A DNA stretch of 64,000 bases from Bacteroidota bacterium (GCA_035506275.1 DATJPT010000014.1:23736-87735); one strand, 5' to 3'. Shown: positions 21,323-41,460, counted from the stretch's first letter. Program-made: numbers and translations. The notes: generated from the letters alone by a model not told the origin.

Positions 21323-21760
21323 TCATCGTTCAGTCCTACCGTCGCCTGAAAGAATCTCCGTAAAGAATAGCTCCAGCCTTGTTTTGAGTTTTCCTGTCGG
21401 AAAACTTTCATCTCTTTCCCACCGCCCCAGCGTTCCCGGATCGACGTTCAATTCAAGGGCCAACGCCCGCTGGCTCATTCCACGGACGTGCCTGTACGTG
21501 ACGATCTTCTGCCCGGTCGTTTGTCCGTGGAAGAGCGGAGGGGTGTAGCCGAGGAATTGTGTTAGCCTAGGTATCAGGTGCACCATGGGATCTGTCCGGG
21601 CCCTCTCCCAATCATAAACCGAGGTTTCAGCGACTTTCCAGAATTTGAACTACTTCTCGTCGCAGAAGTCCCAGCTCAAGCTGCTGCTTATTGATATTAT
21701 CTCCCCAGGTTTTAGAATTTGTCGAAATTCCCGAGGTTTTCGAGAAACGAGGATGATATA
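21323..21760 (-). pseudogene. tandem-HTH (XRE-type) regulator, frameshifted copy
   Basis: C-terminal half (MVHLIPRLTQFLGYT...) intact; N-terminal HTH is homologous to the 41-kb copy but carries a 1-nt insertion creating an in-frame TAG. Confidence 0.55.
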
Positions 21761-22922
21761 GCAAAAAAGGCCACCCAAATCTGAATGGTAAGTCCACTCA
21801 TCCTGATGAACAATGCCTGCAATTTGCCCGACGGGATTACCAAGGGGTGGATTAATTCTGTTCTTGAGTGCACCATTTTTCACCTTCCAATAAGTTTGTT
21901 CGCATATTACCCTATCATCCTTGGTGAGCGCGATTGGAGGCGTTAACATAAACTGACTGAATTATGGTATCTCGGCTGCGTTCTCCCATGCGTACATCGT
22001 TGGTGCCCAGACTAAATGTCTTTCCAAGCGCTAATTTTTAGGAGGTGGACGCGAGCATGCGGGTTAAATTCTCAAAATCATACGGCCAGTTTGCTGTTGG
22101 ACCAGGCTTCAGTTATCTCAATAATCCATCCATTTTAGTGGAGATTTCTCCATTTCCATCGGCGAAGGGGATATATAATGTAGAGGAGAATTTACCAGGA
22201 TTCGAATATGGGTCGGTCCAAATCGACTATCATTTCACTATACAAGTCACGGAGGTGACGTATGGAAAGATTGGTATCGCCTCGAGTTAGTGTATTGATG
22301 CCGTTGTTGATCATTGCCTGCATGATTTCAGTTGTGCCGACAAATAGTAAAGATAAAGATTACGCTCATGGGGCAGACCACATCGTCACCGATTAGACTA
22401 CTTTGGTAAACATAGTTGATATTAAGAAAAATGAGAAAACAAATTGGCAACCCGTACTGAATTGGTTCTATGGGCCGATTGAAGACGAGCACCTACCTGA
22501 TCTCATCATTTTTATCAATAAGGTGGGTAATAAGGACACTGTTACGATGCAACTTCTCAAGGGGGAAAGGGCGTGGATCACCTTTGGGAGGAGCCATACA
22601 TTTATGTTCTTGTCTTGGCTACTCATGATTTGAATATTCATGATTCCACAATGGTCTATAAATCCTATTCAACCTTCACTCTTAAAGATACTCGATCCCA
22701 GAAGGACTCACTTATGACTCGTCAGCGTACCTTCCCGGTAGACCCTACAGATTCATCCGTGGCTTTCATCATGACAAGAAACGTGCTTAACTATCAGACA
22801 CCCCCAACGCGCTGGCCTTAAGCTCAATCCTGGGATTTGCCGCCTCACTAGTTGGTGGCACGCACCTTGGTAGTGAGGCAAATCAACCCAGCCCTGTATC
22901 GGATTCATCAATTAAGATCCGC

Positions 22923-23432
22923 TTGACTTATCTCGCATCGATTCCCCAAAAGGATTCGTTATTCTGTGCGACCGCAAAATTCAGCTTGGCTACAAATACA
23001 AAAGACCGGATCGAACTTGTGCCACCTTTTGGGAGGAAGCAGCCATTTGATTATATAAACTTCAATTTTGAGAATCCGGATAGGTCACGTTTAGGGGTAG
23101 GGTTTGCCGTGATGGATAATTTTTCCGATAATTCCAGTGCGAATATATTCTTGTTGGCACATTTGTATATTTTACGCCCCATGAAGCCTTACGACTCAAG
23201 GTGCCTTGGTTTAGTTGCAGGTACAAATCTCGGGAGCAAGATATTCGGCGACAACGCAGTGGTTGGGTTCAGGGCAAGCCTGGATTACCTCGATTGTTTA
23301 ACTTCTTTGGTGGGATGGTCTTGGCAACCATTTTTCGATTATGCCGGGTTGGTAGTTGCAGTTTCAACACGCAATATAGATAAACAGGCGATTGGTACCT
23401 TCCCCATGCTGGGTATAGATTACAATTTCTAA
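22923..23432 (+). CDS. outer-membrane beta-barrel-like fragment (possibly the 3' part of a decayed OMP gene)
   Basis: alternating amphipathic beta-strand pattern, C-terminal GIDYNF with terminal Phe; upstream 22.0-22.9 kb holds only short broken ORFs. Confidence 0.3.
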   Translation: MTYLASIPQKDSLFCATAKFSLATNTKDRIELVPPFGRKQPFDYINFNFENPDRSRLGVGFAVMDNFSDNSSANIFLLAHLYILRPMKPYDSRCLGLVAGTNLGSKIFGDNAVVGFRASLDYLDCLTSLVGWSWQPFFDYAGLVVAVSTRNIDKQAIGTFPMLGIDYNF

Positions 23433-23592
23433 GTGTGCCGCCGGCGCATATCTAATAATTAGATTGAACCCACATTGAGAAAAAGATAACGTCAATTTGA
23501 TTACAGGACCTGGAACTATCACAAGATAAATAATCTGGAGCACACTCATTAAATAATAGTCGGCTTGTTTTTTCGTTGAAAAAATACAAAAT

Positions 23593-24828
23593 GTGAATTG
23601 TTATCAGAAAGGAATACGGAAAATGTCCTCTGCAAAGAAGAAGGCGAGACTCGCCACGACAACATTATCGGCCAGAGTTACTCCTAAAATAATAAAAGGT
23701 CAAGCTAACTTTGGCTCAGATATTTTGCCTTTACATTTTCATGCGCCTTTGGATGAGAAGAAAATTCCTCCTCAACCATGGCAAAACCTCCCTCAGCCAA
23801 CTGGCCAGTCACCTTTTCGCTTATCGCTGGAATCTGTTTTGTCGCCTGACGAGATTCAAAGAATCAATGCAACAGGGAAATTGGTGTTTCATACGGTTGG
23901 TGATACTGGGGGAGTCAATGAAACCACCGATATTGAGAATGTAGCTTCTTATATGGAAAAAGATTTTTCTCCTAACAAGGGAGAATCAAGCCCGGCCTTT
24001 TTTTACCATCTTGGCGATGTTGTGTATTATGAGGGGCAAGCGATGAATTACTTCGCTCAGTTCTATGAACCTTATATGCGCTACCCGGCTCCCATATTTG
24101 CAATTCCGGGGAACCATGACGGTGATGTGGATCCAACAACAGGAGAAAAATCATTGGATGCCTTTGTGAATAATTTCTGCGCGCGTGCCCCCATCCATAC
24201 TCCTGAAGCAAAGGAGGCGCCGCGCGATGCGATGACTCAGCCTAATGTATATTGGACGCTCGAAACACCGTTAGCAACCATTATCGGTTTGTACAGCAAT
24301 TGCCCTGAAGGTGGCGAGCTTAAGCCAGATCAAATTGCATGGTTTGAATCAGAGTTGATCGCCGCTCCGAAGGATAAAGCACTCATTGTGGCGGTTCACC
24401 ATCCCATCTATTCCGCTTTCGGAGCCCATCCGGGAAGCCAGCATCTCAAGGATGTCTTTGAACAGGCTTGCGGGAAGGCAAATCGGATCCCGCATGCAGT
24501 GCTGTCCGGACACGTTCACAATTATCAACGTTTCAACGGTGAATTATGGGGGGAGGAAGTGCCTTTCTTTGTCATTGGCGCTGGAGGCTACAATCATCGG
24601 TTGCATGTACTATCAGAGAAAATTCATCGGACCAAGTTGCCAATTCAAATGCCAGGATCTGTTGGTACTTTAGAATGCTATTGCGACCAGAATCATGGTT
24701 ACATGGTTGTTGAGATCACAAAAAAACAAATGGCCTTCAAATATTATGCCGTCCCCGAAACGGGCGCCTCTCCGACCAAGGCATTGAAGCCGTACGACAC
24801 GATCACAATCGGCCTCAATTTGAAATAA
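23593..24828 (+). CDS. calcineurin-like metallophosphoesterase (purple acid phosphatase-like)
   Basis: GDxxY (HLGDVVYYEG), GNHD, VAVHHPIYS, SGHVHNYQRF; alternative start at 23623 (MSSAKKK) with SD. Confidence 0.7.
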   Translation: MNCYQKGIRKMSSAKKKARLATTTLSARVTPKIIKGQANFGSDILPLHFHAPLDEKKIPPQPWQNLPQPTGQSPFRLSLESVLSPDEIQRINATGKLVFHTVGDTGGVNETTDIENVASYMEKDFSPNKGESSPAFFYHLGDVVYYEGQAMNYFAQFYEPYMRYPAPIFAIPGNHDGDVDPTTGEKSLDAFVNNFCARAPIHTPEAKEAPRDAMTQPNVYWTLETPLATIIGLYSNCPEGGELKPDQIAWFESELIAAPKDKALIVAVHHPIYSAFGAHPGSQHLKDVFEQACGKANRIPHAVLSGHVHNYQRFNGELWGEEVPFFVIGAGGYNHRLHVLSEKIHRTKLPIQMPGSVGTLECYCDQNHGYMVVEITKKQMAFKYYAVPETGASPTKALKPYDTITIGLNLK

Positions 24829-40200: not shown

Positions 40201-40267
40201 CAAGACATTGCGTAGCTGGACATTATTGAAAATATTTCTGCAATGAATAACAAGGGACATAATTTAA

Positions 40268-40867
40268 ATGCAATCGCCGTGGAATAGCCTTGAATTAATT
40301 AAAATTCTCGTTGACGTACTTACACCGCTTCTTTTACTATTGCTCGGTATTTGGGTTAATCGCATAGCTAAGCGCATAGAAGCGACTCAGTGGACTAATC
40401 AAAAGGTTGTTGAAAAACGCATTATTGTCTATGACGAATTAGCGCCTCTGCTAAATGACATGTATTGCTATTATGAATTCGTTGGTAATTGGAAAGAACT
40501 GACGCCAGTACAAATCATTGAGACTAAGAGAAAGTTAGACGAAAAAGTCCACATCTATGCGCCTTTATTCTCGCCGTCATTCATATCTTCATTCAAGAAA
40601 TTTGAAGATTTGTGTTTTCAAACGTTCGTTGGTGCCGGGCTCGACGCAAAACTGCGGACCCCCATTAAAAGCTCCGATGGAGACCGGAGACAATCGTCCA
40701 AGGTCCACTGGGAGTCAAAATGGCAAACATTGTTTTCCAGCCCTTCAAATTGTTCTGATCCCATAGATATTCACGATGCTTATCAATCGCTGATGGGCAC
40801 TTTTTCAAAGGAGCTTGGGATTGGATTGAACACAAGTAAAAGCGCGATGACCAATAAGCAAGAATGA
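40268..40867 (+). CDS. hypothetical protein with N-terminal TM helix
   Basis: LLLLLLGIWV hydrophobic segment. Confidence 0.35.
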   Translation: MQSPWNSLELIKILVDVLTPLLLLLLGIWVNRIAKRIEATQWTNQKVVEKRIIVYDELAPLLNDMYCYYEFVGNWKELTPVQIIETKRKLDEKVHIYAPLFSPSFISSFKKFEDLCFQTFVGAGLDAKLRTPIKSSDGDRRQSSKVHWESKWQTLFSSPSNCSDPIDIHDAYQSLMGTFSKELGIGLNTSKSAMTNKQE

Positions 40868-40993
40868 GTTTGTGTGCTTGAATTGATGCGCAATTGTATG
40901 ACATCGAAAAAGCATATCAATCAATTTATTTATTGAATGAAGGGCGAGCGCGCGAGCCTTTTGTACAGAGCCGTGCCGGTCTTCTCAGAATAG

Positions 40994-41257
40994 TTAACGG
41001 TTTGATATTTCAGGGTAAGAAGGAATCTCCCTGAAGAAAGGCTCAAGCCGTGTTTTGAGTTGTCCTGTCGGAAAACTTTCATCTCTTTCCCACCGCCCCA
41101 GCGTTCCCGGATCGACGTTCAATTCAAGGGCCAACGCCCGCTGGCTCATTCCACGGACGTGCCTATACGCGACGATCTTCTGCCCGGTCGTTTGTCGGTG
41201 GAAGAGCGGAGGGGTGTAGCCGAGGAACTGCGTTATCCGGGGTATCAGGTGCACCAT
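40994..41257 (-). CDS. tandem-HTH regulator family, 41-kb copy (N-terminal HTH encoded in frame upstream to ~41454 but without a start codon)
   Basis: MVHLIPRITQFLGYT...; upstream in-frame ...GDHIKKQRLELGLLQREVAERLGVTESSVYDWEKHRTDP with no ATG/GTG/TTG. Confidence 0.5.
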   Translation of the reverse strand: MVHLIPRITQFLGYTPPLFHRQTTGQKIVAYRHVRGMSQRALALELNVDPGTLGRWERDESFPTGQLKTRLEPFFREIPSYPEISNR

Positions 41258-41460
41258 GGGATCCGTCCGGTGCTTCTCCCAATCGTAAACCGAGGATTCA
41301 GTGACCCCCAGTCGCTCCGCAACCTCCCTTTGGAGAAGCCCCAGCTCCAGCCGTTGCTTCTTGATGTGGTCTCCCCAGGTGGTAAGAGTTTTAGGGATCT
41401 TCGACGGTTTTTGGCCTTTAAGAACGATTTCGAGGCCATCCCGATTGGCAACGCATCTAT

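What the first reader, a model, noticed from the sequence alone, without database searches (positions are those of the whole stretch)
21323..41454. Multi-copy tandem-HTH regulator gene family marking island boundaries, with most copies decayed
A gene for a two-domain XRE-type HTH protein (...MVHLIPRITQFLGYT...GTLGRWERDES...) occurs at 31908..32390 (intact, 160 aa). A second copy is at 40994..~41454 (N-terminal HTH in frame but no start codon). A third is at 21323..~21760 (a 1-nt insertion gives an in-frame TAG). A 70-bp 3' remnant is at 38461..38530 beside a perfect palindrome. The DNA-level similarity extends beyond the ORF, and the copies sit at junctions between accessory blocks. This behaves like the terminal gene of an integrative or mobile element that has inserted repeatedly.
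Basis: seen in the sequence. Interest (0 to 1): 0.6.

Follow-up and report, generated by a model that had tools for sequence, protein, structure and literature searches.

The report
Orphaned recombinase tails marking comM insertions
The repeated "regulator" genes are the cut-off tail ends of serine-recombinase genes, each left beside the competence gene comM when a mobile element inserted there, so the four copies record at least four successive insertions at one hotspot.

Summary
There are three tandem-HTH copies (A 21323-21783, B 31908-32354, C 40994-41459) and one 3' stub (38473-38540), all on the minus strand. Each closes a block of plus-strand cargo genes.

Copy C abuts a 5'-truncated comM/yifB (41460-41945). 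Copy B keeps the same junction plus about 50 nt of decayed comM. In about 55 related loci from many phyla, the HTH sits next to a comM 3' fragment that starts at the same CPCG codons.

In relatives the HTH is the C-terminal part of a large serine recombinase (LSR) of 630-660 aa, and attP lies inside that ORF. Integration into comM splits the gene:
- A roughly 500-aa LSR ends up against the comM 5' fragment (attL, seen in L156).
- The HTH part stays against the comM 3' fragment (attR).

attP, attB, attL and attR align around a 2-bp crossover. This explains why copy C has no start codon.

The window holds no cognate LSR and no comM 5' part, so all its copies are fossils. LSR targeting of Mg-chelatase/comM is already known. 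An attP inside the recombinase ORF appears not to have been described. How comM is restored in small islands is unresolved.

The parts
41460..41945 (+). comM/yifB 3' fragment (host side of attR). It corresponds to roughly the last 162 of 512 residues and starts at the TG of the first Cys codon of CPCG.
   Evidence: Pfam Mg_chelatase positions 155-206/207 plus Mg_chelatase_C. NCBIfam TIGR00368 YifB positions 344-499/499. 94% aa identity to the 3' end of the L001 comM.
41447..41470 (.). attR core of copy C: GGCAACGCATCTA-TG-TCCCTGCGG. It consists of the element P arm, the 2-bp crossover at 41460-41461, and the comM arm.
   Evidence: Motif coordinates. Alignment of attP, attB, attL and attR.
40994..41459 (-). 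Copy C: the tandem-HTH reading frame, open up to the att core, with no start codon before the internal MVHLIPR. It is the detached 3' part of a split recombinase ORF (linker type ...HRCVANRDGLEIVLKGQKPSKIPK...).
   Evidence: 40% identity to the C-terminal 130 aa of the fused L141 LSR, E 1e-25.
38670..40867 (+). Cargo of the unit nearest the comM fragment: three plus-strand ORFs of 213, 291 and 199 aa with no family match.
38473..38540 (-). 3' stub of a fourth HTH copy. The rest of the copy and its junction have been deleted.
   Evidence: the repeat finder family D4. blastn 84% over 62 nt to copy B.
38549..38570 (.). Hairpin TGCTGACTA-GATA-TAGTCAGCA at the truncation point of the stub. Its function is unknown.
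32938..38460 (+). Cargo of the second unit: seven plus-strand ORFs.
32355..32417 (.). attR core of copy B: GGCAACGCAGGGA-TG-TCGGTGAGG at 32355-32378, with the crossover at 32368-32369. It is followed by about 50 nt of decayed comM (GNCSKPNHRCICTP against GNYGNPHHECTCTP).
31908..32354 (-). Copy B: an intact tandem-HTH gene with its own ATG at 32315 (135 aa), plus the conserved linker (…CVAFCHIRLLAKIPQK) up to the att core.
   Evidence: 80% identical to the HTH that lies directly downstream of an LSR and attP in L077.
22923..31841 (+). Cargo of the third unit. It includes a metallophosphoesterase, an AraC-type regulator and two T9SS-sorted proteins (a BNR/sortilin-like protein and an S8 peptidase).
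   Evidence: Homologous cargo with precomputed Pfam annotation in L001 and L073.
21323..21783 (-). Copy A: a tandem HTH with a 1-nt insertion near 21636 and a resulting in-frame TAG at 21650-21652. The P arm is decayed (GGCCACCCAAATC-TG, 21769-21783) and no comM remnant survives.
15351..21276 (+). Element backbone next to the HTH end: a 185-aa protein, a 1010-aa DUF8128/TrwB/DUF87 ATPase and a 597-aa protein. The ATPase is convergent with the HTH, as in the unsplit element L158.

Best explanation
Each tandem-HTH copy is the right-end (attR) relic of a separate insertion of a mobile element into the host gene comM/yifB. The insertion is catalysed by a large serine recombinase (LSR).

In this element family the recombinase gene carries a C-terminal extension that encodes two XRE-type HTH domains. 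The attachment site attP lies inside that reading frame, in the linker between the recombinase core and the HTH part. Recombination with attB exchanges strands at a 2-bp overlap, which is the TG of the first Cys codon of the comM motif CPCG. This cuts both genes:
- The roughly 500-aa recombinase core ends up against the comM 5' part and picks up a tail of at most 8 codons from antisense comM.
- The HTH part ends up against the comM 3' part, without its promoter or start codon.

In some lineages, including that of window copy B, the HTH part has become a separate gene with its own ATG just downstream of attP.

In the window, at least four such insertions piled up. Each left a unit of plus-strand cargo followed by a minus-strand HTH. 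The recombinase-proximal parts were lost.

Shown by sequence: the four att forms, the fused and split protein populations, and the position of every window copy.

Inferred: that recombination actually occurs, that comM was repaired between insertions, and what the HTH part does (probably extra DNA binding or self-regulation of the recombinase).
For: 1. Copy C abuts a comM fragment that begins at CPCG. Copy B keeps the same junction plus a comM remnant.

2. In about 55 of the loci fetched through the HTH, a comM fragment starting at partial-query residue 274-283 lies 40-75 nt upstream of the HTH. The phyla include Bacteroidota, Ignavibacteriota, Kryptoniota, Verrucomicrobiota, Acidobacteriota, Binatia, Eisenbacteria and proteobacteria.

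3. The LSR and HTH form a single ORF in L142, L139, L141, L118, L107 and L038.

4. Of the 120 best homologues of the L038 protein, my sequence classification gives 68 clear fusions, 31 LSR-only proteins of 494-506 aa and 21 others, most of which still carry HTH sequence. By the Pfam column, about 85 carry HTH_3 and about 35 do not.

5. All 31 short LSR-only proteins end within 8 residues after the motif Q(R/H)Nxx. Their tails, (D/G)S..., are the antisense reading of comM.

6. L156 shows attL directly. A 502-aa LSR overlaps by 29 nt a convergent 351-aa comM 5' fragment, which lies next to the nuo genes.

7. The att sites align as expected:
- attP (L077): GGCAACGCAACCC-CA-TCCCTGCGTTGCC, with 9-bp perfect inverted arms.
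- attR (L012 and window B): comM arm-CA-TCCCTGCGTTGCC.
- attB (full comM): GCCGCAGGGA-CA-TGGATTCAT.
- attL (L156): GGCAACACAACTTCA-AGGATTCAT.

8. The same attP DNA is read in two different frames in different subfamilies (QRNxIPALPFCH vs ALATQPHPCVA). The conservation is therefore at the DNA level.

9. Fused proteins with ...N(L/P)RVALPFC match the junction predicted from attR sites of the L001 type.

10. Literature. The Mg-chelatase gene is the target of 12.4% of predicted site-specific LSRs (PMC10083194). Phage WO sr1WO inserts by LSR into the Mg-chelatase gene and has HTH_XRE genes at its far end (PMC9203015).
Against: 1. The window has no recombinase of this family (tblastn) and no comM 5' part. 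The LSR 3.5-5.3 kb left of the window belongs to another family and is not next to comM.

2. Every small island whose far end was captured has a full-length comM plus a duplicated comM 3' end of about 485 nt, and no recombinase. These are L001, L007, L013, L015, L020 and L152. A plain LSR insertion does not produce this.

3. Fused genes also occur on long contigs of 100-360 kb. An intact attP can therefore sit in large replicons, and I did not explain this.

4. No circular form, empty site from the same population, or recombination activity was observed.

5. attL and attR were seen in different genomes, never for one element.
Confidence: 0.82

Rival explanations
1. The HTH is always an independent regulator gene that merely lies next to attP. 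On this reading the module is a cohesive LSR-attP-HTH unit, and the apparent fusions are read-through gene calls rather than a real split gene.
For: In the lineage of window copy B the two are separate. In L077 the LSR frame stops 11 codons after attP, and the HTH has its own ATG. In phage WO the terminal HTH_XRE genes are separate genes.
Against: There are 68 or more single ORFs of 590-710 aa from independent sources, with the frame conserved across the linker. A cultured phage, CP51, has an annotated 656-aa integrase with the HTH at its C-terminus. Copy C and many relatives have no start codon between the junction and the HTH.
Confidence: 0.12
2. The islands are tyrosine-integrase elements of the e14/icd type. 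Such elements carry a replacement 3' end of the target gene in attP, so the target is restored on integration and the old 3' end is displaced.
For: A full comM plus a displaced 3' fragment that runs from CPCG to about the stop codon is seen in L001, L007, L015, L020 and L152.
Against: 1. Neither Pfam nor PHROGs listed an integrase among the 25 families each call shows for the 69 island-side ORFs. The calls matched 88 and 62 families in all, so a weak single hit is not excluded. None is present in the fully covered islands.
2. The duplicated copies are 95-99% identical within several genomes and extend a variable 0-83 nt past the stop. This points to an in-place origin rather than a foreign attP arm.
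3. The junctions show a 2-bp crossover and a dyad attP typical of serine recombinases.
4. The attL with an LSR was found directly.
Confidence: 0.04
3. The copies are ordinary paralogous XRE regulators, or MqsA-like antitoxins. They arose by local gene duplication and each controls the neighbouring cargo genes.
For: Pfam and NCBIfam see only generic XRE, DicA and MqsA-like HTH similarity. Copy B is intact, and copies A and C keep an 87-aa ORF.
Against: The copies have different linkers, and two of them keep comM junctions. The same adjacency to comM recurs across phyla. No toxin partner is present. Homologues are fused to recombinases.
Confidence: 0.02

Closest known systems
Large serine recombinase elements that target the Mg-chelatase-like gene comM/yifB (Durrant et al. 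2022, PMC10083194; regulated gene integrity of yifB, PMC7192596)
   Same: The recombinase class and the target gene are the same. Integration disrupts the gene, as seen at attL in L156.
   Different: Here attP lies inside the recombinase ORF and detaches a C-terminal tandem-HTH part. I found no mention of this in those papers. The window also shows fossil arrays rather than a live element.
Phage WO sr1WO of Wolbachia (PMC9203015)
   Same: The LSR is at one end, HTH_XRE genes are at the far terminal end, and integration is into the Mg-chelatase gene. Two-domain HTH_XRE genes (the wmk type) occur in sister WO groups.
   Different: WO is a tailed prophage whose HTH genes are described as separate genes. 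No sequence similarity to WO was detected in the phage collection. Homology of the HTH parts was not tested.
SSV-type tyrosine integrases of archaeal fuselloviruses, and Mx8 intP (from my own knowledge; review PMC8371274 was listed but not read)
   Same: attP lies within the integrase coding sequence, so integration splits or alters the recombinase gene.
   Different: Those are tyrosine recombinases and the split destroys the enzyme. Here the enzyme is a serine recombinase, its catalytic, recombinase, zinc-ribbon and coiled-coil parts stay intact, and only an accessory HTH tail is removed.
e14 / phage 21 integration into icd (from my own knowledge)
   Same: A displaced 3' fragment of the target gene lies beside the element, and the target gene is full length.
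   Different: In e14 the replacement end is carried in attP and a tyrosine integrase acts. Here the duplicates look home-made and there is no tyrosine integrase.
AbaR/Tn6022 Tn7-like islands in Acinetobacter comM (from my own knowledge)
   Same: comM is the insertion hotspot for accessory islands.
   Different: The mechanism is transposition with tns/tni genes and a 5-bp duplication. No such genes are present, and the site is a fixed codon with a 2-bp crossover.

Membership tests
LSR integrative elements inserted in comM/yifB | The target gene is a YifB/ComM family Mg-chelatase-like ATPase, cut at the insertion point. | tested here: met
   Window 41448-41942 matches TIGR00368 positions 344-499. 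The full gene in L007 scores 678.7 bits against a cutoff of 362.4. The 5' half was not found in the window.
LSR integrative elements inserted in comM/yifB | A large serine recombinase gene (Resolvase plus Recombinase domains) lies at one end of the integrated element, next to the other half of the target. | tested here: not met
   Not met in the window: tblastn with three family members found nothing. It is met in the relative L156, where a 502-aa LSR overlaps a 351-aa comM 5' fragment. The window therefore holds relics of such elements, not a complete member.
LSR integrative elements inserted in comM/yifB | attL and attR are hybrids of attP and attB around a 2-bp crossover, and attP has imperfect dyad symmetry. 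| tested here: met
   Alignment of attP (L077), attR (L012, window B and C), attB (L001) and attL (L156) around CA/TG. This is sequence inference only, and the four forms come from different genomes.
LSR integrative elements inserted in comM/yifB | Excision and integration activity, with a circular intermediate. | not testable with these tools
   No reads or experiments are available. Contiguous LSR-attP-HTH contigs (L077, L107, L142) are compatible with excised forms but do not prove them.
XRE-family HTH_3 DNA-binding proteins | An HTH_3 (PF01381) domain above the gathering score. | tested here: met
   Copy B scores 53.4 bits against a cutoff of 23, with two stretches.
Split-integrase elements (SSV type) | attP lies inside the integrase ORF. 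| tested here: met
   The attP core encodes QRNPIPALPFCH or ALATQPHPCVA within fused ORFs.
Split-integrase elements (SSV type) | The integrase is a tyrosine recombinase. | tested here: not met
   The domains are Resolvase plus Recombinase, and the nearest NCBIfam models are CcrB and XisF. The element works like this family but is not a member.
Tyrosine-integrase islands with target 3'-end replacement (e14/icd type) | A tyrosine integrase gene lies next to the restored target gene. | tested here: not met
   None appears in the precomputed Pfam of the fully covered islands. Pfam and PHROGs listed none among the 25 families each call shows for the 69 island ORFs; only 25 of the 88 and 62 matched families were displayed.
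Tn7-like comM islands (AbaR type) | tnsA/B/C-like transposition genes and a 5-bp target duplication. | tested here: not met
   No such ORFs appear among the window ORFs or the Pfam hits. The junction is a fixed 2-bp crossover.

The most novel reading that the evidence does not exclude
Cutting the recombinase gene at attP may be a built-in state switch.

- Only the excised circle makes the full LSR-HTH protein.
- The integrated element makes a tail-less LSR and, at most, a free HTH protein.

This difference could set the direction of recombination or the element's own expression without a separate directionality factor.

Orphaned HTH halves such as window copy B, which has its own start codon, could then be the raw material from which free two-domain XRE regulators of mobile elements arose. 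The wmk-type genes of phage WO might be an example.
Probability: 0.3. Interest if true: 0.8.

Novelty: new variant of a known kind. Interest (0 to 1): 0.64.

Why it matters
comM is one of the commonest landing sites for serine-recombinase elements, and these enzymes are being developed as genome-writing tools.

1. A very large family (more than 5600 database relatives) has its attachment site inside its own gene and loses an accessory DNA-binding tail on integration. This gives a new and simple handle on how such elements sense whether they are integrated or free.

2. It supplies ready-made predictions of attP and attB pairs.

3. For genome annotation, it explains a widespread class of [quoted passage not shown]. 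It also turns them into a marker for counting past insertions at this hotspot.

Tried and rejected
1. A search for a tyrosine integrase or transposase in the islands listed none. I used Pfam and PHROGs on 69 island-side ORFs (each call displays only its 25 top families) and the precomputed Pfam of the small islands.

2. I searched the window for the comM 5' half with tblastn and found nothing.

3. I tested the LSR just left of the window (L003) as the cognate enzyme and rejected it. It has no similarity to the comM-targeting family and is not next to comM.

4. I asked whether the comM 3' copy is carried by the element. This is disfavoured because the duplicates are 95-99% identical within genomes and end 0-83 nt past the stop.

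5. The phage collection gave no close relatives. It yielded only a C-terminal HTH in the integrase of Clostridium phage CP51.

6. PADLOC and NCBIfam on the 185-aa, 1010-aa and 597-aa backbone proteins gave only a weak mad8/HerA/TraD-like ATPase signal. Whether that module serves transfer or defence is left open.

7. The palindrome beside the stub was not pursued.

8. Literature searches for an attP inside a serine recombinase gene found nothing. One search failed on syntax, as did one family scan on frame.

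
Full report
**What is in the window**

All are on the minus strand.
- Copy A is at 21323-~21783.
- Copy B is at 31908-32390 as an ORF. Its likely real start is the ATG at 32315, giving 135 aa.
- Copy C is at 40994-~41459.
- A 68-nt 3' stub is at 38473-38540.

Copy B has two HTH_3 stretches (Pfam, 53.4 bits against a cutoff of 23). Copy C is open in frame but has no ATG, GTG or TTG before an internal Met. Copy A carries a 1-nt insertion that creates an in-frame TAG at 21650-21652. Identities are 87% (A/C over 363 nt) and about 80-82% (B against A and C), with E-values from 1e-70 to 1e-125.

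Each copy closes a run of plus-strand genes. G+C is about 0.42-0.47 up to 41 kb and 0.50-0.55 beyond, where core genes follow (katG, mqn, ubiD/X/A, icd).

**The neighbour that explains the copies**

The ORF just right of copy C (41301-41945) is the last third of comM/yifB. It matches Pfam Mg_chelatase positions 155-206 plus Mg_chelatase_C, and NCBIfam TIGR00368 positions 344-499 of 499. Homology starts at the motif CPCGNYG.

Copy B has the same junction sequence followed by about 50 nt of decayed comM. Its reading GNCSKPNHRCICTP corresponds to GNYGNPHHECTCTP. No comM 5' part is present in the window.

**Related loci**

The HTH family is small in the protein database (46 hits). Its contexts are uniform, however.
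- In about 55 of the loci fetched through the HTH, a comM 3' fragment lies 40-75 nt upstream of the HTH on the other strand. These came from 61 species-representative genomes, 79 metagenome contigs and a few look-ups.
- That fragment starts at residue 274-283 of the partial comM protein I used as query.
- The hosts include Bacteroidota, Ignavibacteriota, Kryptoniota, Opitutia, Burkholderiales, Binatia, Eisenbacteria, Deltaproteobacteria and Chloracidobacterium.
- Arrays of two to four HTH copies recur in L081, L086, L091, L099, L104 and L025. L104 and L025 contain two complete comM-fragment-plus-HTH units.

The multi-copy pattern in the window is therefore a general property of this hotspot.

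**The recombinase**

In L142, L139, L141, L118, L107 and L038 the HTH is not a gene of its own. It is the C-terminal part of a large serine recombinase ORF of 609-716 aa.

A database search with the L038 protein returned more than 5600 relatives. I classified the best 120 by sequence:
- 68 are clear fusions.
- 31 are proteins of 494-506 aa with recombinase domains only.
- 21 are others, most of which still carry HTH sequence.

By the Pfam column, about 85 of the 120 carry HTH_3 and about 35 do not.

All 31 short proteins stop within eight residues after the motif Q(R/H)Nxx. Their tails, (D/G)S..., are what antisense comM encodes just 5' of CPCG. The fused proteins continue from the same point with IPALPFC(H/K)...GDH(I/L)RK(K/R)RL, which leads into the HTH.

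The same linker, ALPFCH..., precedes the HTH in the copies that sit next to comM. Upstream of it, those copies read antisense comM (CRRD...).

L156 is from a 2.55-Mb Ignavibacteriales contig and shows the other junction directly. A 502-aa recombinase overlaps by 29 nt a convergent 351-aa comM 5' fragment (ChlI plus Mg_chelatase, without the C-terminal domain). Band_7, GntR and nuoI/H/G follow.

**The four attachment sites**

L077 has an HTH 80% identical to window copy B. There, the recombinase and the HTH are contiguous across the following sequence:

GCATTGGCAACGCAACCC-CA-TCCCTGCGTTGCCTTTTTGCCAT

This sequence has 9-bp perfect inverted arms. Written in the recombinase sense, the four sites are:
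- attP (L077): GGCAACGCAACCC-CA-TCCCTGCGTTGCC
- attR (L012): GCCGCAGGGA-CA-TCCCTGCGTTGCC
- attB (full comM of L001): GCCGCAGGGA-CA-TGGATTCATCGC
- attL (L156): GGCAACACAACTTCA-AGGATTCATTGC

The exchange point is a 2-bp overlap, which is the TG of the first Cys codon of CPCG. In the window, the cores lie at three places:
- 41447-41470 for copy C, with TG at 41460-41461.
- 32355-32378 for copy B, with TG at 32368-32369.
- 21769-21783 for copy A, in decayed form.

Different subfamilies read the same attP DNA in two different frames (QRNxIPALPFCH and ALATQPHPCVA). The conservation is therefore in the DNA site, not the peptide. Fused proteins with N(L/P)RVALPFC match the attP predicted from attR sites of the L001 type. 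The two halves thus rejoin in frame.

**How it most likely works**

- The free element makes a recombinase with a tandem-HTH tail.
- Integration into comM cuts both comM and the recombinase gene.
- The recombinase core stays at the comM 5' side.
- The HTH part stays at the comM 3' side, without a promoter or start codon. This explains copy C and the scattered start sites chosen by gene callers.

In the lineage of copy B, the recombinase frame stops 11 codons after attP and the HTH has its own ATG. Copy B may therefore still be expressed.

The three window copies have three different linkers, so they came from different elements. Together with the stub, this indicates at least four insertions.

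The 185-aa protein and the 1010-aa DUF8128/TrwB/DUF87 ATPase upstream of copy A are the genes that face the HTH in the unsplit element L158. They also occur in L002, L028, L155 and L038. The unit ending in copy A is thus the least eroded.

These steps rest on sequence comparison. Recombination itself, and the role of the HTH tail, are inferred.

**What does not fit yet**

Every small island whose far end was captured has a full-length comM, no recombinase, and a second copy of the comM 3' end. The identities and extents are:
- L152: 98.8%.
- L001: 96.7%.
- L015: 95.3%, extending 15 nt past the stop.
- L007: 88.5%.
- L031: 88.4%.
- L020: 77%, extending 83 nt past the stop.

A serine-recombinase insertion does not duplicate its target. 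A new insertion, moreover, needs an intact attB. In L015 the restored comM runs directly into a truncated ATPase gene.

The high within-genome identity and the variable end suggest that comM was repaired in place. This could be an illegitimate exchange with an intact copy from a sister chromosome or a conspecific cell. Such an event would delete the recombinase side and keep the cargo. I hold this only as a hypothesis, at about 0.3.

I also did not explain why fused genes occur on contigs of 100-360 kb.

In the window's own genome, the sequence left of the window holds a serine recombinase of another family, defence genes and core-like genes, but no comM.

**Comparison with what is known**

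- Durrant et al. report that a Mg-chelatase/ATP-dependent-protease gene is the target of 12.4% of predicted site-specific large serine recombinases. They also report that competence genes are enriched among targets (PMC10083194).
- Phage WO sr1WO inserts by a serine recombinase into the Wolbachia Mg-chelatase gene and carries HTH_XRE genes at its far terminal end (PMC9203015).
- A cultured Clostridium phage, CP51, has a 656-aa integrase whose C-terminus matches our HTH.

The kind of element and its target are therefore known. I did not find any description of an attP inside a serine recombinase ORF, or of the HTH relics as its detached tail, in the held library. The nearest functional analogues are the SSV-type and Mx8 tyrosine integrases. 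These belong to a different enzyme family.

**Verdict**

The window itself holds only fossils, so it is an ordinary hotspot record. The element family it points to is a new variant of a known kind and of moderate to high interest.

Noticed in passing
window 2296-9000 (repeats at 2812-3016, 3871-3921, 4636-4806, 5641-5707, 6218-6334, 7190-7394, 8134-8338, 8855-9007): An integron-like cassette array of six to eight small minus-strand ORFs. They are separated by long repeats that start GCCTAACGGACCGGAGCTAAGCTGCGGCG (an RYYYAAC-type inverse core) and end ...CTGGTTAGG (a GTTRRRY-type core). No integron integrase was seen. The same motif also occurs left of the window beside another recombinase (L003 ~18335).
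   Followed up: partly
window 42034-42904: An IS200-like Y1 (RAYT-type) transposase gene at 42115-42660 is flanked by 59-nt inverted REP-like repeats (42034-42092 and 42665-42723), with a third copy near 42876-42904. The same REP sequence lies just downstream of the full comM in L001 (19052-19096).
   Followed up: partly
window 15351-18945; L002, L028, L038, L075, L155, L158: A two-gene module of a ~180-aa protein plus a ~1010-aa DUF8128/TrwB/DUF87 ATPase. It has more than 2700 database relatives at about 50% identity across phyla, including Patescibacteria and Planctomycetes. The C-terminus may resemble a nuclease; I judged this by eye and did not test it. PADLOC gives only a mad8/HerA-like signal. 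Whether it serves DNA transfer or defence is unclear.
   Followed up: partly
window 12609-14561: A cluster of an XRE HTH (95 aa), an HTH_36 protein (226 aa) and two adjacent RuvC-like genes (167 and 165 aa; only the second reaches Pfam RuvC). The same HTH_36 plus 167-aa pair precedes the ATPase in L073.
   Followed up: no
L003 10627-18141 (window coordinates about -5314 to 2200): Left of the window lie an Eco57I-type methyltransferase, a XamI-type restriction enzyme, a ubiquitin-like Bub/ThiF/Multi_ubiq defence set, a LexA-like S24 peptidase and a 613-aa large serine recombinase. That recombinase belongs to a family different from the comM-targeting one.
   Followed up: partly
L001 6044-6321 and 9347-9463: A third, partial comM 3' fragment lies beyond katG, and an HTH N-terminal remnant lies just after the second comM fragment. 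katG and its neighbours may therefore sit inside a still older island. The window has katG at 47288-49462 downstream of its comM fragment.
   Followed up: no
L079 ~9950-10000 and L080 ~210-260: Two contigs carry the element arm CATCCCTGCGTTGCCTTTTTGCCAT joined to sequence that is neither comM nor recombinase. This may be a secondary insertion site or a deletion.
   Followed up: no
L156 2-1660 and 8219-9550: The Ignavibacteriales element with the true attL also contains a second serine recombinase (552 aa) and a truncated TrwB-like ATPase (443 aa). The ATPase P0141 lies on the same contig about 38 kb away. Taken together, these suggest a composite element of more than 50 kb.
   Followed up: no
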